Assembly (NCBI GenBank): GCA_000004985.1
Contig: GG738890.1
From: Naegleria gruberi
Lineage: Eukaryota
Direction: 5' to 3' (one strand)
Length of the DNA: 64,000 bases
Position numbers and translations under genes: made by a program. Below, piece after piece: positions 2,728 to 57,548 of the stretch. The notes under the pieces were generated by a model that searched no databases, was not told the origin of the DNA, and saw only the letters and a program-made list of their open reading frames with translations. Every line of letters begins with the position of its first letter. The first letter of the stretch is position 1.

Positions 2728-4938
2728 ATGTTTGGAAGTTCTGGTTTTAATGCCGGTGGTGGCAATCCTCAAGGAAATGCTCCTGGAGCCTTTTCATTTG
2801 GTAATAATAACTCTGCTCCAACACAACCAGCTACTGGTGGTGGTGGTGGATTTTCTTTTGGATCATCTACAACTGGAGGTACACAACCATCAACAACTGG
2901 AGGATTCGGACAACCTTCTGCACAACCACCAACTTCTGGAGGATTTGCTTTTGGATCATCTACAACTGGAGGTACACAACCATCTACAACTGGAGGATTT
3001 GGTTTTGGTTCAACACCTTCTACCCAACCAACAACTGGAGGAACAACTGCTGGAGGAACCACAGGTGGATTTGCTTTTGGAAATAAGCCAGCTACCACTG
3101 CAACTACAACACAACCAACCACTGGAGGAATGACTTTCGGTCAACCTTCTACACAACCAACAAGTACTGGAGGAACCACAGGAGGATTTGCTTTTGGTAC
3201 TCAGCCAACAACTGGAACAACTACACAACCAACAACTGGAACCACTGGTGGATTTAACTTTGGCTCTACTACACAACCTTCCACACAACCTACTATCAGC
3301 ACAACAACCACTACACAACCATCTAGTGGAGGATTCAATTTTGGTTCCACAACTACTCAACCAACAACCACACAACCAACTACAGGAACAGCTACTGGGG
3401 GAACTACAGGTGGATTTAACTTTGGAAATACTACAACTGGAACAACTACACAACCTACTACAGGTACAACTACTGGATTCAAAATCGGAACTACTTCAAC
3501 AACTCAACCAACTACTGGAACCACTGGAGGAACCACTGGTGGATTTAACTTTGGAAATACTACAACCCAACCATCAACTGGTACTACAACTACTAGCTCA
3601 ACAACTCAACCAACTACTGGTACCACGGGAGGATCTGGTGGATTTAACTTTGGTTCTACCACAACTACTCCATCAACAGTAGCCCAACCAACTACTACAG
3701 GTACAACTGGAGGAACCACAGGAGGATTTAACTTTGGAAATCAACCAAAACCTGTCACAACACAACCATCAACAACTGGTACTACAACACAACCAACCAC
3801 TACTACTACTGGTACAACAGGAGGAGGTGGAGGATTCAATTTCGGTTCTACTGCTACTACCACTACCCCATCAACCACCAACGCTCCAACTAGTACAGGA
3901 ACAACAGGAGGTGCTGGAGGATTCAACTTTGGAAATAAGCCAACAACAACTCCAACTACTACAACCACTACAGGTACAACAGGAACTACCAATGCAGGCT
4001 TCTCATTTGATAATAAGAGACCATCCGATGAGGGAGGTCCAAATAAGAAGAGATCAGCTGGTTCTGACATTTCCACATCAGGAAATACTACAACTACAGG
4101 CACTACTGGAGGTGGATTCACATTAAACACTGGATCAACAACAACTCCATCCTCTACTCAACCAACAACAGGTACCACAGGAGCTGGAGGTTTCAACTTT
4201 ACAGCTGGATCTGATACAAGCAAAAAGCCAACATTACCATCTTTGGATACAACAAATTCTACTACCACTGCTACTACCGGAGCTACTACAACAGCTCAAC
4301 CAACCACAGCTACCACAACTCAACCAAAACCTATTACTACCACAACTCCTCAAATAGATACATCACAAACTCTTTTAGGAAATAGTACTGTCGAAGAAAT
4401 AATTAACAAATGGAATACAGATCTTTCCACTGATATCAAAGATTTCCACAAAGCAGCTAACCTTGTTTCAAAGTGGGATAAGGATATTATGGAAAATGAA
4501 TCTAAGCTTATTGGACTTAACGATCAAGTTAATAGAATTACAGCAGAACAAAGTGAATTGAAAGGACAATTAGACATGATAGACTCTCAACAAAATAATT
4601 TGGAAAATATCATCAAGGGATTAGAAGATTACATTGAAAAGAATCAATCAATATATGATTCTAGTAAGAGGTCACAATCAGACAGGGAGAGAGAAGAAAC
4701 ATACAAGACTGCCGAATCTATTAATTGCCAACTCGATGCCATGCAACAAACTTTAGATGAAATGGTCATGCAACTTAACAAGACCTTTGAACAATCTGTG
4801 GATCCACATTCTGACTTTACTCGTATTGTGCAAGTAATGAATAATCACTTGGCATGCTTACAATGGATTGAACAACAAGCATCTGGTCTTGACTCTGACA
4901 TTCAAACAAGTTCGAATACTTTGAAACGACTTCAATAA
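2728..4938 (+). CDS. nup62: FG-repeat nucleoporin, Nup62/Nsp1 family
   Basis: 736-aa ORF. The N-terminal ~530 aa are GGFNFG/GGFAFG FG repeats separated by T/Q/P-rich spacers. The C-terminal ~200 aa coiled-coil 'EEIINKWNTDLSTDIKDFHKAANLVSKWDKDIMENESKL...' matches the conserved Nsp1/Nup62 C-terminal domain (from memory). A-rich Kozak. Confidence 0.8.
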   Translation: MFGSSGFNAGGGNPQGNAPGAFSFGNNNSAPTQPATGGGGGFSFGSSTTGGTQPSTTGGFGQPSAQPPTSGGFAFGSSTTGGTQPSTTGGFGFGSTPSTQPTTGGTTAGGTTGGFAFGNKPATTATTTQPTTGGMTFGQPSTQPTSTGGTTGGFAFGTQPTTGTTTQPTTGTTGGFNFGSTTQPSTQPTISTTTTTQPSSGGFNFGSTTTQPTTTQPTTGTATGGTTGGFNFGNTTTGTTTQPTTGTTTGFKIGTTSTTQPTTGTTGGTTGGFNFGNTTTQPSTGTTTTSSTTQPTTGTTGGSGGFNFGSTTTTPSTVAQPTTTGTTGGTTGGFNFGNQPKPVTTQPSTTGTTTQPTTTTTGTTGGGGGFNFGSTATTTTPSTTNAPTSTGTTGGAGGFNFGNKPTTTPTTTTTTGTTGTTNAGFSFDNKRPSDEGGPNKKRSAGSDISTSGNTTTTGTTGGGFTLNTGSTTTPSSTQPTTGTTGAGGFNFTAGSDTSKKPTLPSLDTTNSTTTATTGATTTAQPTTATTTQPKPITTTTPQIDTSQTLLGNSTVEEIINKWNTDLSTDIKDFHKAANLVSKWDKDIMENESKLIGLNDQVNRITAEQSELKGQLDMIDSQQNNLENIIKGLEDYIEKNQSIYDSSKRSQSDREREETYKTAESINCQLDAMQQTLDEMVMQLNKTFEQSVDPHSDFTRIVQVMNNHLACLQWIEQQASGLDSDIQTSSNTLKRLQ
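2770..4330 (+). repeat. Coding tandem repeat array (FG-nucleoporin repeats, ~45-60 nt units)
   Basis: Reiterated 'actggaggaaccacaggtggatttaactttgg'-like units are visible in the DNA. They give rise to spurious antisense and alternate-frame ORFs (2711..3133, 2769..3122, 3010..3453, 3188..3682, 3734..4126, 3741..4130). Confidence 0.7.
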
Positions 4939-10268: not shown

Positions 10269-11439
10269 TAATTTCTAATTTTTCAAAGAGTTTGAATATT
10301 ATCCGTTTTTTTGATATTAATTAAACAAATGATGAAGAGAGTGATAATAGAGCGTTGAAGATGTGCAATATTAATTCGAACAATTGTTGTTGCCAATATT
10401 AACGTTAAGATTAATTATTGTATTGTGTTGTTAATAATAAAAATCAATGTTTTTCCATCATCGTAGAAAATAAAATTCAAGTCATCACGGATCTTCCTAT
10501 AATACCTACCTCCAAAACATCATGTAATTTATCTTCGTATTGGAAAGTAATCAATTCTGTTGGCTTGGCGACTTCCTTGACCAATGTTTTTCTGAGCAAG
10601 CTAAATAATTCCTTCATTTTTTTTTAAAATCTTTAAAATATCGGTTAATAGGTAGATGCGACCCTTAAATGGACTATTTAAAAATATAAAAATGATATTA
10701 TTTAAATTCACAACGTTGACTTTTTGAGTTTTGTGTTGAAAGGATGGTGCATGAATATAATATATTCATATTTTTCATTACACAGCCAATCTGATTGTGA
10801 AATACACGAAAGAGTTGTTTCTGTTTTGTGAGTAGACAAGAAACATGTTCCAGTTTTTAAAGATTTGATTCAATAGAAGAAATATCTTTCAGAGAGATCC
10901 TTTGTACAATAGAGACTTTTTTATTGAAAACTACTAAACAATTTCTAATCTGATATTATTATACAATTGTGGTTTTGTGTTCTTGATATTAGGAGTGCTG
11001 TGGATTTACAATTCTGCAAATGCTATAAAGTGAGGGGAATAATTATCAGCCCTCTTGTGACTCTACTATTCTCAATAATAATTGAAATGAAAAAGTGCAA
11101 GAGGGCTCTCTGAGTCTATAATCATAATAGCTGAAGTATTCATTGCAGTAGGTTTCTTTTTTTTAATTGAACAAGAGACAATCATCACATTCAAGCCAGC
11201 TCTCTTTCTATTTATATTTTAGGAAATGCCTCTTTCAAATTTTGAAACAAACTCTTGTCTATTTGTATTTTTGGTAAATGTAACTTTCATATTTTGAAGC
11301 TGCTATCTAAATTTTTAATTTTCATGATCATGAGAGTTATATAATCAATAAATATTTATTGATCTTAATTGATTCGAGGATGAATCTGTACTGTTGCTTT
11401 TTACTGGCCCTAGTTCAGAAATCAGATGCAACAAGGGTT

Positions 11440-11475
11440 GAAGTGATTGATATTTCACAATTTAAGATAGTGAAT
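11440..11475 (+). promoter_or_regulatory. Conserved 36-nt block immediately upstream of 5S rRNA (copy 1)
   Basis: GAAGTGATTGATATTTCACAATTTAAGATAGTGAAT recurs with 4 mismatches at 24691..24726 directly upstream of the second 5S copy. It contains a TATA-like ATATTT about 25 nt upstream of the 5S start. Confidence 0.35.
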
Positions 11476-11593
11476 GGCTACGGCCATATCACGATGAATG
11501 CACCTCATCCCGTCCGATTTGAGAAGTTAAGCATCGTCGAGCCACATCAGTACTGAGGTTGGAGACAACTTGGGAACCTGTGGTGCTGTAGTC
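11476..11593 (+). rRNA. rrn5: 5S ribosomal RNA
   Basis: 118 nt beginning GGCTACGGCCATATCAC. Conserved 5S elements are present: the loop A/box A region, 'CCCGTCCGATTTGAGAAGTTAAGC', and '...GGGAACCTGTGGTGCTGTAGTC'. The 5' and 3' ends form the 9-bp helix I. A T5 run follows as a Pol III terminator. Identical second copy at 24727..24844. Confidence 0.85.
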
Positions 11594-11823
11594 TTTTTCA
11601 TTTTACCTTATGGATTATTTAATTATTTAGATATTGATCTGTATTAGGTTATAAATTCTACATTTGAAAAAAAGCAACATTCAATCCATGAAATCGTCCT
11701 TATAAACAGCCTTATGAAAGCCTTAGTGACAATTTCACTCTTGAGCTTTCGGTTTGTTTCAAGGTGGTTCTTATGTGAAATAACTTTTTCAAAATCCAAC
11801 ATAATGTTTCTATTATTTAACAG

Positions 11824-11998
11824 AGCGAGAAATCATACCAGATGAATCCTCACAGGAAAAAATTGAGAAGGAGGGCAACAACCACTTTGATTATTGACCA
11901 AATTCCATTGGCTAATCATCCTCTGAGTGCAAGGAGGAGAGTTTCCAGATTCACATTTCAGTCTGCATGATCTCTGAAATGTCCTTCAAGGTAAGTAT
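11824..11998 (-). ncRNA. U1: U1 spliceosomal snRNA
   Basis: The minus strand reads ATACTTACCTtgaagg..., the canonical U1 5' end complementary to 5' splice sites. A stem-loop II 'CCTTGCACTCAGAGGATG' (U1A-loop-like UUGCAC) follows. An Sm site AATTTTTTCC precedes a 3' stem-loop (GAGGATTCAT/ATGATTTCTC). The 3' end is approximate. Confidence 0.75.
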
Positions 11999-17759: not shown

Positions 17760-18034
17760 TTTTTTAGTGTTGGTTGAGAGATTTGTTATTATTAGAAGAA
17801 GAATTTATATTCTTCTGTTGTGTGGATTAAAATGGTGAGAAGGTTAATTTGAGAGATTCTAATCTTGTTCCATTTTTTTTAATATTTAATTTTATTAAAT
17901 ATTATTTATAAGATTAAAAATGGAAGGATAAACCAAAATGTCTTCATAAGTCTCTTAAAAATACAAGATTCAAGAGGTTTTAGTGGGATTAATGTATTTT
18001 ATGAATTTTAAAGTGGAAGATAGATTAATGTGTC

Positions 18035-18160
18035 GGGGTCTTGGCGCAGTCGGTATTATTAATAGATTTTAGGGTAGGTAACGCTCTCAATCTACCTCAA
18101 CGTCGGTAGCGCGTAGGTCTCATAATCCTAAGGTCGTGAGTTCGATCCTCACAGACCCCA
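18035..18160 (+). tRNA. tRNA-Met(CAU) copy interrupted by a 53-nt insertion in the D-loop
   Basis: Identical to the intact 73-nt tRNA-Met at 36917..36989 and 25622..25694 (minus), except for an insertion at 18055..18107. The insertion is ATTATTAATAGATTTTAGGGTAGGTAACGCTCTCAATCTACCTCAAC plus GTCGGT, which duplicates the 6 nt preceding it. CTTTTG follows the 3' end. Confidence 0.6.
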
Positions 18161-18320
18161 ACTTTTGCCCTTTCTTTTGCTTATTTTGCATCCTATCGAA
18201 CGATCATCACCATAGTTTGATCACCAATATCTTTACAAGCAAAGGGAGCAATTTCTAGCTGGTTTGTTTTGCTTGTGGTTAACGTTGATATTACAGTTGA
18301 GTAACAAACATAAAATAAAA

Positions 18321-20378
18321 ATGCTCAACAATGTTCATCATGTCGATCATCAAATATTGAACGAAATGGATGACTACTTTTCAAGAAGGAACAAACTCTT
18401 TGATCAATTCAAAGAAAAACGAAGAAGAGAATTGGGAAATAAAATCGGGAAGGAAATTACCATCACAATAGATAAAGATGTAGTGAAGGGGAAAGCCTTT
18501 GAAACGAGCCCATACAAAATAGCATCCGATCTTTCCAATGATCAATCTATGGATCATCTTATTGCCAAGATTAATGGTAAATTATGGGACATGAATAGAG
18601 AGTTGGAAGGAGATGGTCGATTGGAATTTTGTTCTGATTGGAATGATTTGGAGGTGAGGAGAGTTTTCAAGCGTAGTTCTGCATTTGTGTTGGGAGCAGC
18701 TGTGGAACAAGTATTCAAATGTTTGGTCAGTGGTGGAGCTGTACTTGAGGATGATTATGGCAAGGGAGGTTTCTTTTATGAGAATTTTATGGATGAAGTA
18801 GTTAGAAATAGCTCTATAAATGATCATTCGAAAATCAAGAAAGAAATAGAGAAGATCATTGAAGAAAAACACCCATTCGAAAGATTAATTGTGAGGAAAT
18901 ATGAAGCTCTTGAATTATTTGCAGGAAACAAATTCAAAATTGAGCTCTTGAATGAAAAGTTTAAAGATGACGATTTCCTTTGCGTTTATCGTTGTGGATG
19001 CTTCATAGATACCTCTGTCGGCCCACATTTGTTGCACACTGGACAAATAGCATCTTTTGAAATTATATCAAATACTCGATTTCTATCTGATACAAAGAGG
19101 GAAATTTTACGGTTTTATGGAATTTCGTTTCCAACTGTTCAATTAAAGGAAGAATGGAAAATAATGACCCAAAAACTCAAACTTTGTGACCACAAAAAGG
19201 TTGGAAAGGATCAAGAGCTGTGGTTCTTTCATCCACATGCCCCTGGAATGGTTTCACTCCTTCCTCACGGCAAGAGAATATGCAATTCTGTTCAATCTCA
19301 ATTACGAGAAGCTTATTGGAGGTATGGATTTGCAGAGGTTCAAAGCCCCATTGTTTTGAATAAGGATCTGTGGTATTATCAATCAGGTAGTAGGAATCAG
19401 TGGTGGCAACAATACAATTTCGCTCTGGAAATTGATAAGGAGTACTATATACTCAAACCATACAACAAACCTATTCACTGTATTATGTATCGGAACAAAT
19501 CCAGATCTTATAGAGATCTACCAATTAGATATGTAGAATTTGGCTCAGTATTTCCGGATAACATCAAACCTTTTAGGCTGAATGGCAGGTTGAGAAGTTT
19601 CCAAAAAGATGAGTCAACCATTTTTTGCCAGTCAGACCAAACCAAAAAGGAAGTATTGAATTGTCTTCAAATGATGGGAAGTGTATATAACAAATTTGGA
19701 TTTGAATTCAAGATTGTATTTTCCACAAAACCTGTTAGTTTTTATGGTGACAATCTGGAATGGATCAAGTTGGAAGGTATATTGGAAACTGCCCTAAAAT
19801 CATTGGGTCATGAATGGGAAAGAGACGAAGGAGGGGCTCCTTCTCTCGGTCCAAGAATTGAGTTTTATGTTTCAGATAATTTGAAGAGGTTTATTTACCT
19901 TTGTGGAATAATTCAAATGGACTTAATGACACCACGTTTTTTCAATTTGACTTATACCAGTTCAGACAATTCTGCAGAATCAAAACCCATCTGCATCAGC
20001 AGTACCATCTTGAATAACACTGAAACTTTCATGGCTTTATCTGCTGAACGTTATGGTGGAAAGTGGCCTTTTTGGCTTTCTCCTAGACAAGCTATCATCA
20101 TTCCAATTTGTGAAAAGTGTAGTGAATATGCTAACAATGTTAAAGATAGAATTCATCAGGCTGGATACTATGTGGACGTGGATATGAGCTTTCATACGAT
20201 AGAAAAAAAGATTAGGAATGCTCATTTAGCTCAGTATAATTATATTTTAATAATTGGCGTCAGTGAGATGGAAACTGATTGCGTGAATGTAAGAATAAGA
20301 GATGGCGAACAAGAAGGAGTTAAATCTATTCAAGAATTATTGGAAGAATTCGAAGTTAAAATTAGGGAATTTAAATAA
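18321..20378 (+). CDS. Threonyl-tRNA synthetase-like protein with degenerate catalytic and editing sites
   Basis: TGS domain ('ITITIDKDVVKGKAFETSPYKIASDLS...IAKINGKLWDMNRELE'), class-II core ('YRDLPIRYVEFGSVFPDN...LNGRLRSFQKDESTIFCQ') and ThrRS anticodon-binding domain ('PFWLSPRQAIIIPI...'). Zinc/active-site residues are substituted: MNCPGH becomes YNKPIH, FGSCHRNE becomes FGSVFPDN, HRAILGS becomes MALSAER. The editing motif HSxAH becomes RSSAF. The ORF-track start at 18264 is a TTG. The ATG at 18321 has aaaataaaaATG context. Confidence 0.7.
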   Translation: MLNNVHHVDHQILNEMDDYFSRRNKLFDQFKEKRRRELGNKIGKEITITIDKDVVKGKAFETSPYKIASDLSNDQSMDHLIAKINGKLWDMNRELEGDGRLEFCSDWNDLEVRRVFKRSSAFVLGAAVEQVFKCLVSGGAVLEDDYGKGGFFYENFMDEVVRNSSINDHSKIKKEIEKIIEEKHPFERLIVRKYEALELFAGNKFKIELLNEKFKDDDFLCVYRCGCFIDTSVGPHLLHTGQIASFEIISNTRFLSDTKREILRFYGISFPTVQLKEEWKIMTQKLKLCDHKKVGKDQELWFFHPHAPGMVSLLPHGKRICNSVQSQLREAYWRYGFAEVQSPIVLNKDLWYYQSGSRNQWWQQYNFALEIDKEYYILKPYNKPIHCIMYRNKSRSYRDLPIRYVEFGSVFPDNIKPFRLNGRLRSFQKDESTIFCQSDQTKKEVLNCLQMMGSVYNKFGFEFKIVFSTKPVSFYGDNLEWIKLEGILETALKSLGHEWERDEGGAPSLGPRIEFYVSDNLKRFIYLCGIIQMDLMTPRFFNLTYTSSDNSAESKPICISSTILNNTETFMALSAERYGGKWPFWLSPRQAIIIPICEKCSEYANNVKDRIHQAGYYVDVDMSFHTIEKKIRNAHLAQYNYILIIGVSEMETDCVNVRIRDGEQEGVKSIQELLEEFEVKIREFK

Positions 20379-24441: not shown

Positions 24442-24690
24442 TTTGTTATTTGTTAATAGTATATAATACAGTTAAGTTGTTTTTTTGTGATTGAAAATGC
24501 ATAATCGTTAGTGTGCCATTTATGGTGGATTCTGTACCGAAACCAAAGCGCTGCCGTGAGCACTAATTATTGATCTGTGGAATTTGCGCAAGAAATGGTT
24601 GCCATTTCATCCTCTTGGAAACTTCACAATCTGTCATTAAGAGAATGATTTTATGTATTTCAAAGCATTGCAATTTCAGAAATTTCAGGT

Positions 24691-24726
24691 GAAGTGATTA
24701 ATATTTCACAATTTAAGAAAGAGAAT
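24691..24726 (+). promoter_or_regulatory. Conserved 36-nt block immediately upstream of 5S rRNA (copy 2)
   Basis: GAAGTGATTAATATTTCACAATTTAAGAAAGAGAAT. See copy 1 at 11440..11475. Confidence 0.35.
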
Positions 24727-24844
24727 GGCTACGGCCATATCACGATGAATGCACCTCATCCCGTCCGATTTGAGAAGTTAAGCATCGTCGAGCCACATCA
24801 GTACTGAGGTTGGAGACAACTTGGGAACCTGTGGTGCTGTAGTC
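24727..24844 (+). rRNA. rrn5: 5S ribosomal RNA (second copy)
   Basis: 118 nt identical to 11476..11593. Followed by TTTT. Confidence 0.85.
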
Positions 24845-25087
24845 TTTTACTTATCAATATTGCTTATTGGTCAATCGTCCAGTTGCTTCTCTCATTCTTT
24901 CCATTATTCCAAACAAAGTGTTAACCACTGATAAAACTGCTCCATCATCAATAATGATCAATTAAGATTTGCTACATGTTCAAAATAAATGACATTATTA
25001 TTTATTAAAATACCACAAACATTTTGCCATTCTTCACTCTAGAACAAACAGAATAAAAACAATGTTCCTTATGCAATTCTGAAAACC

Positions 25088-25275
25088 ATCTTTCTCGGCC
25101 AATTGGCTTTGATCGAGTGTAGTATCTGTTCTTTTCAGTTTAATAGCTGAAAGCAGCCCACGGGTTGCATTACTATTAACTCAATTTTTTGTAGGGATCA
25201 GGGTTTGAGCTTGATTGCTCACTTTGATTGGTTTCAATCAGACATTGCACAAACCGTCAGATTAGGAGCCACCCA
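25088..25275 (+). ncRNA. U2: U2 spliceosomal snRNA
   Basis: ATCTTTCTCGGCCAATTGGCTTTGATCGAGTGTAGTATCTGTTCTTTTCAGTTTAATAGCTGA... matches the conserved U2 5' region, including the branch-point-interacting GUAGUA. Sm site AATTTTTTG. 3' stem-loops end ...GGAGCCACCC. Length ~187 nt. Confidence 0.85.
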
Positions 25276-25621
25276 ACTCTTTTAATTAATTGAAAAATCA
25301 TTGAACAAAGACAATCTCAATCAGAGTAAAATTGAGCTTTTTACAAATTCCGAGCATGTATGATGACGAAGATATAGTAAGCATGCTGAGGGACTCAAAA
25401 CAGTCATTGATTGGTGTTGATATTGAACAATTTCTTGTCGACATTTGAATGCAGTTGGCAAGTGCGAAAAGGAAAATGAGAAGTGGAACGATTTCAAGAA
25501 TGAATTATTTGATTAATTGAAAGTAGAAACAATTAGGAAATTGATGTTGTTTTTTGTTCTCCTTCATAACATAACTATTGGGATTAGCAACACTTAAAAG
25601 CTATTGAGAGGATGCAAAAGT

Positions 25622-25694
25622 TGGGGTCTGTGAGGATCGAACTCACGACCTTAGGATTATGAGACCTACGCGCTACCGACTGCGCCAAGACCCC
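25622..25694 (-). tRNA. tRNA-Met (CAU), elongator-type
   Basis: GGGGTCT-TG-GCGC-AGTCGGTA-GCGC-G-TAGGT-CTCATAA-TCCTA-AGGTC-GTGAG-TTCGATC-CTCAC-AGACCCC-A. Anticodon CAT. T-loop TTCGATC. No initiator-specific A1-U72, A54 or A60. Confidence 0.85.
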
Positions 25695-25797
25695 GACACA
25701 TTATAAACCTTTTACAGTTTCTTCATTAACCTTAACTGAGTTCCTAGGTTTACCTAATAGGAACAGTTTTCTTTTGTTCATATTCAATTCGAAAAAA

Positions 25798-36634: not shown

Positions 36635-36916
36635 TCTCTTTTTGTTGGAATTGAATTTGATTGTTTTCTTTTGTTGTCATAAATATTTTTTACCAAGTTA
36701 CATGGACAAAGAAGGGTAACATATCTTTTAATATTTTGATTGGATTGATTTAACAAAAATACATTGCCAAAAGTGACAAGATGTTTCATCATGTGTTATT
36801 AAAAAAATAGGATGTTCTCCTTAAAGATTAATGATTTAATGAAATCTTGGTTGATATAATTAAGGTGGGATTAATGTATTTTATGAATTTTAAAGTGGAA
36901 GATTGATTAATGTGTC

Positions 36917-36989
36917 GGGGTCTTGGCGCAGTCGGTAGCGCGTAGGTCTCATAATCCTAAGGTCGTGAGTTCGATCCTCACAGACCCCA
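36917..36989 (+). tRNA. tRNA-Met (CAU), elongator-type
   Basis: Sequence identical to 25622..25694. Shares a 52-nt upstream block with the interrupted copy at 18035. CTTTTG terminator. Confidence 0.85.
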
Positions 36990-49446: not shown

Positions 49447-49622
49447 ATGATGAAGAATAATTTAGGATTTAATTGTAAATATTGTAATTATCAATGAATT
49501 TGGATTATGAATAAACACGTCTCTATTGAGAATAGAGCTACGTGAGCTTGACTTTTCTCTACTTTTAAACTTTCAGCAATTAATTGATAGCATTGACTCT
49601 TTTTCCAATTGTTCTTTTTCAT
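49447..49622 (+). repeat. 175-bp direct repeat element, copy 1 (AATAAA + hairpin module)
   Basis: ~97% identical to 53886..54059. Contains AATAAACACGTCTCTATTGAGAATAGAG (AATAAA followed by a perfect 7-bp inverted repeat CTCTATT/AATAGAG). Confidence 0.7.
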
Positions 49623-49794
49623 CACTAGTGAAAGTTGAATTAAATTTGAAGATGTTCATTTCCATATCTAATGATTTCAATTGTTTTGCCTTACTAATAA
49701 CCTCCAATGTTTTATCATTTGTACTTGAAAAACCATATTGACATCCCAAACAAGTAGAGCTGCATGTTGCTATCTATTCTAACAACACAATAAT

Positions 49795-51422
49795 TCATAA
49801 TAACACACAATTTGGTTCTGATTTTGCTTTGTAATTTGTCACCTCAACTTTTGTCTTATCAATTAAAAGAGTTTTCAATTGATCTATTTTAGATTCATTT
49901 CTAATATTATTTGCTTGAATAGCAAGATGTTTCAATTGTTTCATTTCATTAATGTATTCAGCTCCAATATTTCCAATTCTATTATAACTAACATCAAGTT
50001 CGGTCAATTGTGTCAGTTGGCTTAGAAATTTACATCCTTCATCAGAAATATTATTAAGAGCCATGCTAAGATCAGTCAATTGGGTCAGTTCACTAATATT
50101 TTTACATCCATTATCGGAAATATTATTTCCATTTAGATATAGAATAGTTAGAGATTTCAGATTGGTGATGGATTTGATTGAATCATCGCCTATTGAACTT
50201 GAGCAAATGCGTAAGTCAGTTAATTGTGTCAATGTAGATAAATATTCGAAACTTTCTGCGTTAATCTTATTGTAACTGAATCTGAGACAAGTTAATTGTT
50301 TAAATTGACTGATATGTTTAGCTCCTTCACTTCCTATCTCATTATGACTAATATCAAGTTCAGTTAAATTACCAAGTTGACTAATATATTCCGTTCCTTC
50401 ATTACGAATACTATTATTATTAATTTCCAAAAACATCAACTGTTCCATTTCACTAATGAATTTAGCCCCTTCAGCGCCAATTTTGTTATCATAAATGGAA
50501 AGTCTTGTCAATTGTTTGAGTTTTCTAATTTTCTTACATCCTTCAGCTCGTAGATTATTCTCTATTATGGTAAGAGTAGTTAAGTTTCCCATCTCACTAA
50601 CATATTCGACACCTGTTTCACCAATATAATTGTTACTGATATCAAGATTGGTCAATTGTTTCATTTCACTTATGGATTTAGCACCTTCTTCACCAATTCT
50701 ATTACAATTAATTCCAAGATTGGTCAATTGATTGAGAGCTACAAGATATTTAGCACCTTCTGCACAAATGTCATTCACACCAATATTAAGAATTTTCAAT
50801 TGGCTTAATTGACCTATAAATTTAGCACCTTCTGCTCCCAACTCATTTGTTCTAATATCTAGATTAGTCAACTTTAATTTGGTCAAATAACTAGCTCCTT
50901 CAGCACTTATATTATTCCCATAAAGATTAGCACTTGTCAATTCTTTACATTCGCTCAAATATTTCACACCTTCATTTCCTATTCTATTGTAACCTATTTC
51001 AATACTTGTCAATCTTTTAAAATAATTTAATTATTATTAAATCCAATTGATATTGTCGATTTGTCTTCCACTTTTAGAAAAGTTACATTTTGTAAAAATT
51101 GTGATTTTTGCATTCGTGAATTCTTGTTGTAAAGTTTCAATGAAAGTTTCAATTTTTTTACAATATTTAACCACTGTTTGGAAACAAGTGCGCAATTTAG
51201 AATTAGAAATTTAAAATTTCGAGAATGACACAAGAAGGAAAGAGTCTCTAATAGTGTATCGTCTGAGAATTGTTTCGAATAATTGTTTGTTTCTTCCGAA
51301 TTATTAAACATTAATTTTTTACACTCTATTCCGATACGTGGCGATGATGATTCTTGTTCGGAATGAGAGGATTTAAAATTCGAAACTGGGACTGAAAAAT
51401 TCTTATTGTTCAATTCACTCAT
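49795..51422 (-). pseudogene. F-box/RNI-type LRR gene disrupted by a frameshift (or sequence error)
   Basis: The upstream ORF 51422..51027 encodes the F-box-like N-terminus ('DTLLETLSFLCHSRNFKFLILNCALVSKQWLNIV', atagaaaaaaATG). It stops at 51027-51029. The LRR frame is open only from 51030 downward and the ORF-track start at 51012 is a TTG. There is no plausible GT...AG intron. The break lies in an A/T run aataataattaaatta. Confidence 0.5.
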
Positions 51423-53885: not shown

Positions 53886-54059
53886 TGATGAATAATTTAG
53901 GATTTAATTGTAAATATTGTAATTATCAATGAATTTGGAGATTACGAATAAACACGTCTCTATTGAGAATAGAGCTACGTGAGCTTGACTTTTCTCTACT
54001 TTTAACCATTCAGCAATTAATTGATAGCATTGACTCTTTTTCCAATTGTTCTTTTTCAT
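53886..54059 (+). repeat. 175-bp direct repeat element, copy 2
   Basis: See 49447..49622. Begins 31 nt after the stop of 51557..53854. Confidence 0.7.
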
Positions 54060-55835
54060 TAGGATGGACATGATTTCATGAATTTGGAGTCGATAAATTT
54101 TACACAATTCACTTGATGGGATGCCTAGTGGTTGACCTTTGTAATATTGGATTTTCTCATCTGAAAACATTTCATCTCTTTGGTGAGCTTCATGATTAAG
54201 TAAGCATTTAGGATAGGAAGTGCATTGATACAGGAGTGTACCAACTTTGTACGTATGAATATCAAAACATTTACCACAATGACACTTTCTATATTGCACT
54301 AAATCTCTTTTCAGTCTTTTCAAAACCATAGCCTTCCCACAATAGCATTGTACCTTGTATTGGTTAGTTTTCTTGTCTAGAAATGGTTTCGTTTTGGCTA
54401 GACCATTGTTTGGCTCTGTAACTTTCAACTTCTTGGCTGGTTGGCAATAATTTTCAGAGTGCTTGCTTGCTCTACTACTAAGCACTGCACTCTCGAATGC
54501 CTCTTGTTGACTCTGACCAGAGAATAATTGAGCTACAATGTAAGTTGAATTATTCTTCAATAGTTGAGATAGTGTTGGTTTTTCAGAACAAGTGCTGTTT
54601 TTGAGGACCTTAATTAAATCAAATAATCTTGATCGATTTTTCACAGAGGGATCGTTTTGAAATGTTTCAAATTCTTGTTCGTTCATTTTAGAACAGGTAC
54701 TCCACAAACTTTCTAATTGTACAATTTCCTTTTGGAGAATATTCTTACAGTATTGATATCTAACTTCGAGTTCTTTCATTTCATATTCACATTCGTAGTA
54801 CTTGCTCAAAACTGAAATGATAAATGGCTTATCGGAATTACTCGATTTCTTATAGTCTTCAAAGTGAACAACGAACGGAATGAGGAATTTTGGAGTGGCT
54901 TGAATCCATCCTCTATATTTCATTTTATGAATGAGGAGATAGAATGGATTTTTCAATTTCAATCGCTGATTGTTGGTGTCTCTCATGATGAATCCTTCAA
55001 TTCTCAATCTTGCTTCTACATTCTCATGAGTAGAGATGAATGTATCCAAATGTTTGAGAGCTTGTTCCAGACTTGAAAAATTCTCAAAACGTTTTGGTCT
55101 CTTCCAATTCTTCAACTCGGCTCTCTTTCTCAATTTCAAGCAAATTTTATCAACTTGATCCCTGGAGAGTTCCTTTCCACTTTGTGTCTCTACAATTGTC
55201 AGTAAGTAAATGACAGGATTCTGATAGATTTGAACAATTTCATTTTGTGAGGAACACATTTCCAAACAATAGGTCAGTGATGGATCCAAATCCTTTCCAA
55301 TCTCATTCAATTCTACTCCGCCACAAATTTCCACAAATAGCTCTCTATATGTTTTCTGTGTTTCACTTCCAATTGCCAAATAATCCTCACAAAAGTTGTG
55401 TCTCGTTGCAATCATCCACTCTCCCTCATAGCAAAACATTAAAAGAAACGTTCCATCTTCCTTTGTCTCCAAACTGAAATTAGAATAATCAAACAATTTG
55501 GATTTCTCCAATGATGGCGACTGATCCTGTTCCAAAAACACCAATTCTCTATCATCATTTAGTCCTCTAATATTCGGAGAGGACGAATACGAATGGTGCT
55601 GATTAAAAAACCTGGTCATTCCTCTCGCCACAATTTTCCACGAATTTAATTCCAACACCAAGCCTCTGCATTCATTGACAATTTGTTCATCACGTGGCGA
55701 TTGAATATTGTCATAATTTAATACAATTAATGGGAAGGAAGTTTGATCGGGATGTGTTGATGAGCGAATTTTGTATTTTTCATGGAGAGTCGTGATGGAT
55801 TGACCCTTCTGTTGGAGGAATTGTTGTGTTTGCAT
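53904..55835 (-). CDS. ATP-dependent RNA/DNA ligase-like nucleotidyltransferase with C-terminal Cys-rich (zinc-ribbon-like) region
   Basis: Covalent nucleotidyltransferase motifs are present: motif I 'KEDGTF' (KxDG), motif IV 'EGFIMRD', motif V 'LKLKN'. C-terminus 'CYCGKAMVLKRLKRDLVQYRKCHCGKC...CTSYPKC'. The ORF-track start at 55922 is a GTG. The ATG at 55835 has aaaaaaaATG context (643 aa). Confidence 0.5.
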   Translation of the reverse strand: MQTQQFLQQKGQSITTLHEKYKIRSSTHPDQTSFPLIVLNYDNIQSPRDEQIVNECRGLVLELNSWKIVARGMTRFFNQHHSYSSSPNIRGLNDDRELVFLEQDQSPSLEKSKLFDYSNFSLETKEDGTFLLMFCYEGEWMIATRHNFCEDYLAIGSETQKTYRELFVEICGGVELNEIGKDLDPSLTYCLEMCSSQNEIVQIYQNPVIYLLTIVETQSGKELSRDQVDKICLKLRKRAELKNWKRPKRFENFSSLEQALKHLDTFISTHENVEARLRIEGFIMRDTNNQRLKLKNPFYLLIHKMKYRGWIQATPKFLIPFVVHFEDYKKSSNSDKPFIISVLSKYYECEYEMKELEVRYQYCKNILQKEIVQLESLWSTCSKMNEQEFETFQNDPSVKNRSRLFDLIKVLKNSTCSEKPTLSQLLKNNSTYIVAQLFSGQSQQEAFESAVLSSRASKHSENYCQPAKKLKVTEPNNGLAKTKPFLDKKTNQYKVQCYCGKAMVLKRLKRDLVQYRKCHCGKCFDIHTYKVGTLLYQCTSYPKCLLNHEAHQRDEMFSDEKIQYYKGQPLGIPSSELCKIYRLQIHEIMSILMKKNNWKKSQCYQLIAEWLKVEKSQAHVALFSIETCLFVISKFIDNYNIYN

Positions 55836-56096
55836 TTTTTTTGGCTTGATTTTACAATTTCGATTTTGAACTTGTGAGATACTTAAAAGAATATTATTGT
55901 GTATTGAAAGAATAAATATCACAACATTTGCTTTAAATGATTTGTAAGTTTAACATCTCTGACAGCTTTGATGTCAATGTTCTGGTGTGAAAATCTTGAA
56001 AAAGGTCTTGCTATCAAACGAAGCAATCCTCGGCAACTTGAGAACTCATTATTTCAAAACGTTGTTGCTTGAGTCTTGTTATGGAGTTGTACGAAA

Positions 56097-57548
56097 CTAA
56101 TTATTGGTATCACTAATGTTATTAGATTCTTGTGCATTTTGTTGAGAAAGATAAACTCGAGTTGAATGTAAATGATCAAATAGGGAGGTATGAGTGAATT
56201 CCTCTGAAATCCATTCAGGAATTGCAGTTTCAAAAGTCCACTTGTCTGATAATTCGTAACGCCATGAATGTAGATGGATACTCAGTGGTACAGTGTCATC
56301 TTCCTCAATGTTTTTAGAGGTATATTCTGCATTACAGGAAATGCAAACAGTTTCAAATGGCTGTAAGAAGGTTTCCTCTTCAGGTCGAATGTTTGTATGT
56401 GAACGTTTGAAAGGACCTGGTTTTGGCTTTTTTGATTTGGGAGCATTCTTTTCAGAGGTCTCCTTTCTCTTGTGAGGATTTTCTTCTGTTGGTATGGAGG
56501 TATCTGTTGATGATTCACTATTTTCCAAGGAAATATCAGATGTTGATTCGAGTTGGTGATTGGAAAAGTCGACTCTCCAACTTTCTTCCAAAGTCTTTTT
56601 TTGCACTTCCAATTCCTTAATGAATTGTTCGTTATAGAAAAAATCATTAATGATAGGATTTCCAATAGATTCCAAATGAATTCTAATCTGATGTGTTCTT
56701 CCAGTGATTGGTTTACACATTATGAGTGAAATATCCTTTTCCTTATTGTAGACAATACCAGAAAAGAGAGTAATTGCCTCAAACGTTCCCAATTCATCAT
56801 CTGCTGACCAAGTTCCATTCTTGTGATTTTTGCAATATACCTTCTTTTCACATTTCACAAAACTGTTATTTAAATCCTTCACCAATCCACTCACTTCATA
56901 TTCTCCTTTCCACTTTCCTTTCACAACAGCCAAATAATATTTTCCAATTGCCTTTTCTCTTGTCTTGATCATTTCCACAATTTCTCCCGAAACCTTCTTA
57001 TTCTTTGCCAAAACAAGAACTCCCGATGTACTATGATCCAATCGATGAACAACATGAAGTGTTCCATATCCATTCTCCTCCAAAATATAAGTCAATGAAT
57101 TCTTTCGATATCTTCCACAGGGATGAATAGGAAAACTAGCTGGTTTATCGACAACTAATAAATCTGACTCATCATATAAAATTGGAATATTCCTATCAAA
57201 TATTGGTTTCTCATGAAAATGTACTCGATGAGCAATTGTCTTGCTTTTATCCCACTTTTCCTCTAAATTATTTAAATTTTCGTTATTAATTTTAAATCGA
57301 CCTAATTCGAAGGCTTTCATCAGATATTGTTCGGAAAAGTAGGGAAATTCCGCTCTATAGACATCAAGTACCTTCTTATCAACCCATCTATCTCGACATC
57401 CTGTTTGAAAGTCGAGAAAATAGGGAATTGCATGACGAAGTCCATTCCGAACAAGATATTGTTTGCCTCTTGCTAATTCAATGGTTTTCTTGACGAGGAG
57501 ATTTGAAGATGATGACACTGTTGGAATTGTTAGAGGCATCTCACTCAT
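56097..57548 (-). CDS. RluA-family pseudouridine synthase
   Basis: 483 aa. 'LLVVDKPASFPIHP', catalytic 'VHRLDHSTSGVLVLAKN' and 'GRTHQIRIHL' motifs. Acidic/S-rich C-terminal extension. aaaaaaaATG start. Confidence 0.8.
   Translation of the reverse strand: MSEMPLTIPTVSSSSNLLVKKTIELARGKQYLVRNGLRHAIPYFLDFQTGCRDRWVDKKVLDVYRAEFPYFSEQYLMKAFELGRFKINNENLNNLEEKWDKSKTIAHRVHFHEKPIFDRNIPILYDESDLLVVDKPASFPIHPCGRYRKNSLTYILEENGYGTLHVVHRLDHSTSGVLVLAKNKKVSGEIVEMIKTREKAIGKYYLAVVKGKWKGEYEVSGLVKDLNNSFVKCEKKVYCKNHKNGTWSADDELGTFEAITLFSGIVYNKEKDISLIMCKPITGRTHQIRIHLESIGNPIINDFFYNEQFIKELEVQKKTLEESWRVDFSNHQLESTSDISLENSESSTDTSIPTEENPHKRKETSEKNAPKSKKPKPGPFKRSHTNIRPEEETFLQPFETVCISCNAEYTSKNIEEDDTVPLSIHLHSWRYELSDKWTFETAIPEWISEEFTHTSLFDHLHSTRVYLSQQNAQESNNISDTNN

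What the first reader, a model, noticed from the sequence alone, without database searches (positions are those of the whole stretch)
18035..18160. One of three identical tRNA-Met genes carries a 53-nt D-loop insertion with a 6-bp flanking duplication
Copies at 36917..36989 and 25622..25694 are intact. The copy at 18035 has 47 nt of unique AT-rich sequence (with an internal GGTAG/CTACC mini-hairpin) inserted in the D-loop and flanked by duplicated GTCGGT. That looks like a target-site duplication. It could be a very small transposable element or insertion scar inactivating a tRNA gene. Alternatively it could be a non-canonical D-loop tRNA intron. Either is unusual for a eukaryote.
Basis: seen in the sequence. 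Interest (0 to 1): 0.6.

Follow-up and report, generated by a model that had tools for sequence, protein, structure and literature searches.

The report
Insertion-broken spare tRNA-Met gene copy
One of three identical methionine tRNA genes in this stretch of Naegleria gruberi DNA was recently broken by a 46-base insertion flanked by a 7-base duplication, which most likely makes it an ordinary dead spare copy rather than a gene with an unusual intron.

Summary
The copy at 18035-18160 equals the intact 73-nt elongator tRNA-Met(CAT) gene plus 53 nt in the D-loop. The flanking repeat is 7 bp (GTCGGTA), not 6, so the unique insert is 46 nt.

The window is Naegleria gruberi nuclear DNA, a genome reported to carry about 924 tRNA genes.

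The intron reading is poorly supported:
- No bulge-helix-bulge motif forms in any of the 8 possible excision registers. The only 4-bp helix is the repeat pairing with itself.
- The insert holds a TTTT run, the same signal that follows all six Pol III genes in the window.
- Two identical copies nearby lack the insert.

The 7-bp duplication points to DNA integrated at a staggered cut. The insert has no terminal inverted repeats, no second copy in the window, no local template, and no match in metagenome, viral or prokaryote collections. It resembles Dada transposons (6-7 bp duplication, inside small-RNA genes, no terminal repeats, sub-terminal inverted repeats). However, it sits at a different site and I found no Dada transposase.

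The N. gruberi genome could not be searched, so the source of the 46 bp stays open. My verdict is a young insertional pseudogene of modest interest.

The parts
18035..18055 (+). 5' part of tRNA-Met(CAT), nucleotides 1-21: acceptor 5' strand, D-stem 5' strand and D-loop. It includes an intact A-box-like TGGCGCAGTCGG.
   Evidence: Identical to positions 1-21 of the intact copies.
18049..18055 (+). Left copy of the 7-bp direct repeat GTCGGTA (tRNA nucleotides 15-21), the target-site duplication.
18056..18101 (+). The 46-nt unique insert TTATTAATAGATTTTAGGGTAGGTAACGCTCTCAATCTACCTCAAC. It has no terminal inverted repeats and occurs once in the window.
18067..18070 (+). TTTT run inside the insert, a likely premature RNA polymerase III termination signal.
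   Evidence: Each of the six Pol III genes in the window has a run of T4 or T5 within the first 10 nt downstream (counting the gene's own final T for the two 5S genes) and no internal run of 4 or more T. That T4 acts as a terminator is an inference.
18063..18068 (+). Left arm (TAGATT) of a sub-terminal inverted repeat, 7 nt from the left end of the insert.
   Evidence: A symmetric 6-bp inverted repeat arises in 0.5% of shuffles (post hoc test).
18089..18094 (+). Right arm (AATCTA) of the sub-terminal inverted repeat, 7 nt from the right end of the insert.
18102..18108 (+). Right copy of the 7-bp direct repeat GTCGGTA.
18109..18160 (+). 3' part of tRNA-Met, nucleotides 22-73: D-stem 3' strand, anticodon arm with CAT, and T arm with the B box GTTCGATCC.
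   Evidence: Identical to the intact copies. Rfam gives a partial tRNA hit of 24.9 bits.
17983..18034 (+). A 52-nt upstream flank shared with the copy at 36917 (1 mismatch). It shows that the two loci are recent duplicates.
18161..18167 (+). ACTTTTG trailer with the T4 terminator, shared by all three tRNA-Met copies.
36917..36989 (+). Intact tRNA-Met(CAT), an empty-site reference.
25622..25694 (-). Intact tRNA-Met(CAT), an empty-site reference.

Best explanation
This is a young insertional pseudogene. One redundant elongator tRNA-Met gene of Naegleria gruberi received 46 bp of foreign DNA at a 7-bp staggered break in its D-loop (tRNA nucleotides 15-21). Fill-in of the stagger produced the GTCGGTA duplication.

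The most likely source of the 46 bp is a fragment or miniature derivative of a mobile element: either a 5'-truncated retroelement tail or an internally deleted cut-and-paste element. Captured filler DNA at a repaired break is the close second.

The duplication leaves an A-box-like sequence intact 5' of the insert, and the B box intact 53 nt further away than normal. RNA polymerase III may therefore still initiate. The transcript would either stop at the TTTT in the insert or carry a 53-nt D-loop expansion that destroys the D-arm/T-arm core, and would then be discarded.

The cell loses nothing, because identical intact copies lie 7.5 and 18.8 kb away.

Shown: the anatomy, the duplication, the lack of a BHB, the T4 run and the redundancy. 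Inferred: the staggered-cut mechanism, the termination or decay of transcripts, and the mobile-element origin.
For: - The organism is N. gruberi. The neighbouring ThrRS ORF is 100% identical to an N. gruberi protein. About 924 tDNAs are reported for this genome (PMC2888827).
- The exons are 73/73 identical to the two intact copies, and a 7-bp direct repeat flanks the 46 unique nt.
- The upstream 52 nt match copy B with 1 mismatch, so the duplication and the insertion are recent.
- tRNA detectors fail on the locus, and deleting 53 nt restores tRNA-Met.
- No BHB forms. In 7 of the 8 registers the central helix has only 0-2 of 4 pairs. The eighth (21/22) has 4 of 4 only because UCGG in one repeat copy pairs with UCGG in the other, and its flanking helices are 1 bp each. 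With the cloverleaf enforced, the junctions lie in a 2x2 and a 9x8 internal loop.
- A T4 run lies inside the insert. T4/T5 is the first downstream signal of all six Pol III genes in the window, and none of them has an internal run of 4 or more T.
- A published review states that such D- or T-arm insertions in one of many synonymous eukaryotic tRNA genes are presumed pseudogenes (PMC4090602).
- The symmetric sub-terminal inverted repeat TAGATT/AATCTA, 7 nt from each end, suggests a discrete element (P about 0.005, post hoc).
Against: - No second copy of the insert was found: none in the window, and no exact match to its 25-nt core in metagenome, viral or prokaryote collections. The mobile-element origin therefore has no positive support beyond the duplication and the internal symmetry.
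- The exons show no decay. That is equally what a functional intron-containing gene would show, although 0 changes in 73 nt is also expected about 25% of the time at the roughly 2% divergence seen in the flank.
- In C. merolae some D-loop introns with poor or absent central helices are nevertheless spliced (PMC3728597). Absence of a BHB is therefore not absolute proof against splicing.
- T4 is an inferred terminator in Naegleria, not a demonstrated one.
Confidence: 0.78

Rival explanations
1. Non-canonical D-loop tRNA intron. The 53 nt are removed from the pre-tRNA by the tRNA splicing endonuclease and ligase, as in Cyanidioschyzon merolae or nucleomorph tRNAs. Cleavage would occur at 21/22 and 74/75 of the precursor, guided by the 4-bp UCGG/UCGG helix.
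For: - Precise excision would restore a perfect tRNA.
- In register 21/22 a 4-bp helix, two pairs of which are G-U, places both cut sites 2 nt 3' of each helix strand, as the BHB rule requires.
- The exons and flanks are undecayed.
- The conserved upstream flank could be an external promoter that tolerates the wider A/B-box spacing.
- C. merolae has 14 D-loop introns of 11-69 nt.
Against: - The helix follows automatically from a direct repeat that contains a self-complementary tetramer. My estimate of the chance of this is about 0.26.
- The flanking helices are 1 bp each, whereas the definition requires more than 2 (PMC3728597). The register also competes with the D-stem.
- The insert contains T4.
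- Two of the three identical genes lack it.
- I found no report of ectopic tRNA introns in Naegleria or elsewhere in Discoba.
- A scan of metagenome contigs for any 25-55-nt insertion at this site in this tRNA found nothing.
Confidence: 0.07
2. Miniature derivative of a Dada-like, target-specific DNA transposon that homes to the D-loop/A-box of tRNA-Met genes.
For: Dada elements make 6-7 bp target-site duplications and insert inside tRNA, snRNA and 5S genes, often within the A box. They lack terminal inverted repeats but carry short sub-terminal inverted repeats, and they occur in protists such as Perkinsus (PMC3706591; PMC8869645). This locus shows:
- a 7-bp duplication;
- a site inside a multicopy tRNA gene;
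- no terminal inverted repeats;
- the symmetric sub-terminal repeat TAGATT/AATCTA.
Against: - Known Dada tRNA sites are nucleotides 8-13 or the anticodon stem, not 15-21.
- Complete Dada elements are 4.7-11 kb, and the one deletion derivative described still keeps about 1.8 kb of terminal sequence (231 + 1567 bp). This insert is 46 bp.
- The sub-terminal repeat is not mirrored in the target gene at the same distance, as it is in Dada-U6 and Dada-U1 (sequence inspection).
- No Dada transposase is in the window (tblastn).
- A profile of three Dada transposases found only Perkinsus proteins among 5.8 billion, and none from Naegleria. That search has limited sensitivity.
- The other two tRNA-Met copies are unoccupied.
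Confidence: 0.1
3. Non-transposon filler. A staggered double-strand break in the tRNA gene, a site of Pol III/replication conflict, was repaired by end joining after fill-in. The repair captured 46 nt of unrelated DNA or cDNA.
For: - The insert is single-copy in everything I could search.
- It has no terminal inverted repeats and no poly(A) tail.
- Its base composition equals the genome background.
Against: - No donor lies within 500 nt on either side. The longest shared word is 8 nt, which is no better than random 1-kb chunks. No donor lies anywhere else in the 64-kb window either.
- A clean 7-bp duplication with no junctional deletions, plus an internally symmetric insert, is more typical of enzyme-mediated integration.
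Confidence: 0.22
4. Assembly or cloning artefact in the draft genome.
For: Only a single assembly is available to me, and the reads could not be inspected.
Against: A unique 46-nt sequence bounded by an exact 7-bp duplication of the target, inside otherwise perfect sequence, is not a pattern that mis-assembly produces.
Confidence: 0.03

Closest known systems
Insertion-bearing tRNA pseudogenes among redundant eukaryotic tRNA gene families (Yoshihisa 2014, PMC4090602)
   Same: A short insertion in the D arm of one of many synonymous genes, while the other copies are intact. tRNA detectors reject it.
   Different: This copy has a clean 7-bp target-site duplication and fully undecayed exons. It is therefore very young, and the integration mechanism is still legible.
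Dada superfamily of small-RNA-gene-targeting DNA transposons (Kojima & Jurka 2013, PMC3706591; PMC8869645)
   Same: A 6-7 bp target-site duplication, insertion inside a multicopy tRNA gene within or next to the A box, no terminal inverted repeats, and short sub-terminal inverted repeats.
   Different: The site is nucleotides 15-21 instead of 8-13 or the anticodon stem. The insert is 46 bp instead of kilobases. No transposase was found, no further copies were found, and the sub-terminal repeat is not shared with the target.
Ectopic BHB-dependent tRNA introns of Cyanidioschyzon merolae and of nucleomorphs (Soma et al. 2013, PMC3728597)
   Same: It interrupts the D-loop, its length falls within 11-69 nt, and precise removal would give a canonical tRNA.
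   Different: There is no bulge-helix-bulge with flanking helices. It is present in only one of three identical genes. It contains a T4 run and is flanked by a direct repeat, which is a DNA-integration signature rather than an RNA-processing one.
5'-truncated non-LTR retrotransposon insertions (target-primed reverse transcription)
   Same: A short insert with a target-site duplication of variable length. On the minus strand the insert ends in an A/T-rich stretch (TAAAATCTATTAATAA) next to the duplication.
   Different: There is no poly(A) or simple-repeat tail, and no parent element could be identified.

Membership tests
BHB-dependent non-canonical tRNA intron | Precise excision yields a canonical cloverleaf tRNA. 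| tested here: met
   Eight equivalent 53-nt excisions restore the 73-nt tRNA-Met. This is guaranteed by the direct repeat, so it does not discriminate.
BHB-dependent non-canonical tRNA intron | A central 4-bp helix with the splice sites 2 nt into 3-nt bulges on opposite strands. | tested here: inconclusive
   Only register 21/22 gives 4 of 4 pairs (UCGG/UCGG, two of them G-U). That helix is made by the two repeat copies themselves. The other registers give 0-2 of 4. With the cloverleaf enforced, the junctions lie in 2x2 and 9x8 internal loops, not in 3-nt bulges.
BHB-dependent non-canonical tRNA intron | At least one flanking helix (h or h') of more than 2 bp next to a bulge (definition in PMC3728597). 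| tested here: not met
   The outer and inner helices are 1 bp each in the only register that has a central helix, and that register conflicts with the D-stem.
BHB-dependent non-canonical tRNA intron | The intron is a stable feature of the gene family: present in most or all copies, or conserved in relatives. | tested here: not met
   Two of the three identical genes in the window lack it. Metagenome contigs gave no hit for any 25-55-nt insertion at this site. Relatives' genomes were not available.
BHB-dependent non-canonical tRNA intron | The intervening sequence is compatible with full-length Pol III transcription (no terminator). | tested here: not met
   TTTT lies at 18067-18070. T4/T5 is the first downstream signal of all six Pol III genes here, and none has an internal run of 4 or more T. 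Terminator strength in Naegleria is inferred.
BHB-dependent non-canonical tRNA intron | Excision is observed in RNA. | not testable with these tools
   No RNA data are accessible.
Dada DNA transposon | A 6-7 bp target-site duplication. | tested here: met
   7-bp GTCGGTA at 18049-18055 and 18102-18108.
Dada DNA transposon | Insertion inside a multicopy small RNA gene at a family-specific site. | tested here: inconclusive
   It is inside tRNA-Met. However, the site (nucleotides 15-21) is not one of the described ones (8-13, anticodon stem), and only one occupied site is known.
Dada DNA transposon | [quoted passage not shown] | tested here: inconclusive
   There are no terminal inverted repeats. 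TAGATT/AATCTA lie 7 nt from each end. The tRNA has GGGTCT and GGTCTC at the corresponding distances, not this motif (sequence inspection).
Dada DNA transposon | A Dada-type DDE transposase encoded by autonomous copies in the same genome. | tested here: inconclusive
   No tblastn hit in the window. A profile search of the protein collection returned only Perkinsus. The N. gruberi genome itself could not be searched.
MITE / small non-autonomous cut-and-paste element | Terminal inverted repeats. | tested here: not met
   The ends are TTATTAAT... and ...CCTCAAC, which are not inverted copies of each other under either a 6-bp or a 7-bp duplication.
MITE / small non-autonomous cut-and-paste element | Multiple dispersed copies, each with its own target-site duplication. 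| tested here: inconclusive
   It occurs once in 64 kb with up to 3 mismatches allowed, and its 25-nt core has no exact match in the metagenome, viral or prokaryote collections. The host genome was not searchable.
tRNA pseudogene by insertion | The cloverleaf is disrupted while intact synonymous copies exist. | tested here: met
   24.9 bits against 69.2 bits. ARAGORN finds no gene at default thresholds. Two intact copies lie within 19 kb.

The most novel reading that the evidence does not exclude
The 46-bp insert is the smallest member of an undescribed target-specific element of Heterolobosea that homes to the D-loop/A-box of tRNA-Met genes (Dada-like in behaviour). Alternatively, it is the first ectopic D-loop tRNA intron outside red algae and nucleomorphs, gained through a DNA-level insertion whose duplicated target supplies the splicing helix.
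Probability: 0.12. Interest if true: 0.6.

Novelty: new member of a known kind. Interest (0 to 1): 0.25.

Why it matters
As a dead spare tRNA gene it matters little. Its value is that of a very fresh insertion whose junctions are still perfect. A single whole-genome search would show whether Naegleria has a tiny element that targets tRNA genes. If the insert proved to be spliced, it would be a live example of how an ectopic tRNA intron can arise from a DNA insertion whose target duplication forms the junction helix. For annotation, the locus should be flagged as a tRNA-Met pseudogene and not as an intron-containing gene.

Tried and rejected
- **Locally templated insertion (snap-back or template switch).** Rejected. 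The longest word shared with the 500 nt on either side is 8 nt, which is below the mean for random 1-kb chunks.
- **Significant RNA hairpin in the insert.** Rejected (z = -1.59; as DNA, z = -0.63).
- **Canonical or anticodon-loop intron.** ARAGORN in intron mode finds nothing at default thresholds. At relaxed thresholds it gives only a spurious tRNA-Pro(agg) model.
- **Spliceosomal-type excision using GT...AG within the duplication.** Rejected by inspection, because it would not restore the tRNA.
- **Reaching the host genome.** Three look-ups of window proteins and of the N. gruberi ThrRS entry returned nothing. A Willaertia magna locus could be fetched, but it has no tRNA next to its ThrRS.
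- **Collection scans.** Scans for the insert core, and for any 25-55-nt insertion at this site, found nothing.
- **Dada transposase.** No hit in the window, and only Perkinsus proteins in the large protein collection.
- **Literature.** I found no paper on Naegleria tRNA introns at ectopic positions or on Dada elements in Naegleria.
- **Transposase or reverse transcriptase nearby.** Pfam annotation of the 33 distinct long ORFs shows housekeeping genes only.

Full report
**What the window is.** The ORF just downstream of the finding (ATG at 18318, stop at 20378) is a threonyl-tRNA synthetase. It is 100% identical to an NCBI "predicted protein [Naegleria gruberi]", and the next best hit is Willaertia magna at 46%. 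The window also fits a nuclear chromosome segment of this heterolobosean amoeba:
- G+C is 30-41% in 2-kb bins, mostly 30-37%.
- The ORFs are densely packed and largely intron-free.
- 5S rRNA, U2 and tRNA genes are dispersed through it.

A survey of eukaryotic tRNA genes counts 924 tDNAs in this genome (PMC2888827).

**The observation.** The sequence at 18035-18160 reads as three parts:
- GGGGTCTTGGCGCA GTCGGTA
- TTATTAATAGATTTTAGGGTAGGTAACGCTCTCAATCTACCTCAAC
- GTCGGTA GCGCGTAGGTCTCATAATCCTAAGGTCGTGAGTTCGATCCTCACAGACCCCA

Apart from 53 extra nucleotides, it is identical at all 73 positions to the tRNA-Met(CAT) genes at 36917-36989 (+) and 25622-25694 (-). ARAGORN and Rfam call both of those (69.2 bits each). 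The T-loop TTCGA and the G1-C72 pair mark an elongator tRNA, not an initiator (sequence inspection).

Enumerating excisions shows eight equivalent registers. The flanking direct repeat is therefore 7 bp, GTCGGTA (tRNA nucleotides 15-21; 18049-18055 and 18102-18108). The unique insert is 46 nt (18056-18101).

The interrupted copy is invisible to ARAGORN. Rfam gives it only a partial 24.9-bit match, below the gathering score of 29. Deleting 53 nt in silico restores tRNA-Met. A 7-bp repeat of the target at the far end of a random insert has a chance of about 6e-5. It is therefore a real signature of how the DNA got there.

**Age and direction.**
- The 52 nt upstream of the interrupted copy match the 52 nt upstream of the copy at 36917, with one mismatch.
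- All three copies share TAATGTGTC immediately upstream and ACTTTTG immediately downstream.
- The 73-nt form is a canonical cloverleaf present twice, so the ancestral state is the uninterrupted gene and the event is an insertion.
- There are no substitutions in the exons and about 2% divergence in the flank, so the event is recent. These numbers cannot separate "too young to decay" from "under selection".

**Is it an intron?** I tested the bulge-helix-bulge (BHB) rule as defined for archaeal and Cyanidioschyzon merolae introns. That rule requires a 4-bp central helix, 3-nt bulges cut after their second nucleotide, and flanking helices of more than 2 bp (PMC3728597).
- In seven of the eight registers the central helix has 0-2 of 4 pairs.
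- In register 21/22 it has 4 of 4, but only because UCGG in the left repeat pairs with UCGG in the right repeat (two G-U pairs). The outer and inner helices are 1 bp each. Any direct repeat holding a self-complementary tetramer gives this geometry automatically. I estimate the chance at roughly one in four.
- With the acceptor, anticodon and T arms enforced, the best fold keeps the D-stem. The junctions then lie in a 2x2 and a 9x8 internal loop, not in 3-nt bulges.
- The unconstrained minimum-energy fold abandons the cloverleaf.
- The hairpin in the insert is not more stable than shuffled sequence.

Two further points count against an intron:
- The insert contains TTTT (18067-18070). Each of the six Pol III genes in the window (three tRNA-Met, tRNA-Val, two 5S) has a run of T4 or T5 within the first 10 nt downstream, counting the gene's own final T for the two 5S genes. 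None has an internal run of 4 or more T, whereas the U2 gene does. T4 is thus the likely Naegleria Pol III terminator, and it would truncate the transcript about 36 nt into the gene.
- The insert is in only one of three identical genes.

A review of tRNA introns states that short D- or T-arm insertions found in one of many synonymous eukaryotic tRNA genes are taken to be pseudogenes. It also notes that true ectopic introns are so far confined to nucleomorphs and C. merolae (PMC4090602). I found no paper reporting ectopic tRNA introns in Naegleria.

**What kind of insertion?**
- The insert has no terminal inverted repeats.
- It has no poly(A) tail. On the minus strand it ends in an A/T-rich TAAAATCTATTAATAA next to the duplication.
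- It has no second copy in the window, even with 3 mismatches or short-word BLAST.
- It has no template within 500 nt on either side.
- Its 25-nt core has no exact match in the metagenome, viral or prokaryotic genome collections.
- It does carry a 6-bp inverted repeat, TAGATT/AATCTA, placed exactly 7 nt from each end. This occurs in 0.5% of shuffles, but the test was post hoc.

The closest known behaviour is that of Dada transposons. They make 6-7 bp target-site duplications and insert inside tRNA, snRNA and 5S genes, often in the A box. They lack terminal inverted repeats, carry short sub-terminal inverted repeats, and occur in protists such as Perkinsus (PMC3706591; PMC8869645).

Membership in Dada is not established:
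- Known tRNA sites are nucleotides 8-13 or the anticodon stem, not 15-21.
- Complete Dada elements are kilobases long.
- The sub-terminal motif is not mirrored in the target.
- No Dada transposase is in the window.
- A profile of three Dada transposases retrieved only Perkinsus proteins.

None of the 33 distinct long ORFs in the window has a Pfam match to a transposase or reverse transcriptase.

**Limits.** The decisive test is a search of the whole N. gruberi genome for the insert, and I could not run it. Window proteins and the N. gruberi ThrRS entry are not retrievable from the contig index. A Willaertia locus is retrievable, but it carries no tRNA near its ThrRS. A metagenome scan for any 25-55-nt insertion after nucleotide 21 of this tRNA found nothing.

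**Conclusion.** The locus is best read as a very young insertional pseudogene of a redundant tRNA-Met gene. It was created when 46 bp were integrated at a 7-bp staggered cut in the D-loop.
- The duplication happens to keep an A-box-like sequence intact, so Pol III may still initiate. Inference: the product would then be truncated at the T4 or misfolded.
- The source of the 46 bp is unresolved. A mobile-element fragment, or an element that is Dada-like in behaviour, and captured filler DNA are the live options.
- The intron reading survives only at low probability.
- This is an ordinary kind of lesion seen at an unusually legible stage, so its interest is modest.

Noticed in passing
window 11439-11597 and 24690-24848; 11826-11998 (-); 25086-25276 (+): There are two identical 5S rRNA genes that also share 37 nt of upstream flank (98% over 159 nt). 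Each lies about 230-240 nt upstream of an snRNA gene. One is U2 (120.6 bits). The other is a divergent U1-like sequence (45.5 bits, below Rfam's gathering score of 69.5, E = 3e-8). A tRNA gene follows within 0.4-2 kb (tRNA-Met, tRNA-Val). This looks like a recurring 5S-snRNA-tRNA gene cluster.
   Followed up: partly
window 17983-18034 vs 36865-36916; 25695-25703: tRNA-Met copies A and B share a sharply bounded 52-nt upstream block (1 mismatch). All three copies share TAATGTGTC at -9 to -1 and ACTTTTG at +1 to +7. This could be an upstream Pol III promoter element, or it could mean that tRNA genes are duplicated as units of about 130 bp. The mechanism is unknown.
   Followed up: partly
window 49451-49622 and 53886-54059: A direct repeat of about 174 nt (98% identical) lies 4.4 kb apart. 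The right copy covers the last 40 or so codons of a T4 Rnl1-like RNA ligase ORF (53904-55922, -). The left copy is a detached fragment of that gene end (44-aa ORF at 49491-49625, -). It lies beside an LRR gene.
   Followed up: partly
window 53904-55922 (-), 56097-57548 (-), 18318-20378 (+): Several RNA-processing genes lie in the same 64 kb as the tRNA, 5S and snRNA genes: an RNA ligase (PF09511) with a C-terminal zinc-finger domain, a pseudouridine synthase, and a ThrRS whose nearest non-Naegleria relative is only 46% identical. This is probably coincidence.
   Followed up: no
window 2728-4938 (+): This is an Nsp1-type FG nucleoporin. It has a long array of degenerate GGFNFG/GFAFG repeats, which accounts for direct-repeat families D1, D3, D5 and D11.
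   Followed up: no
window 49795-51012 (-): This is a leucine-rich-repeat protein built from 24-residue (72-nt) units, which accounts for direct-repeat families D2 and D4.
   Followed up: no
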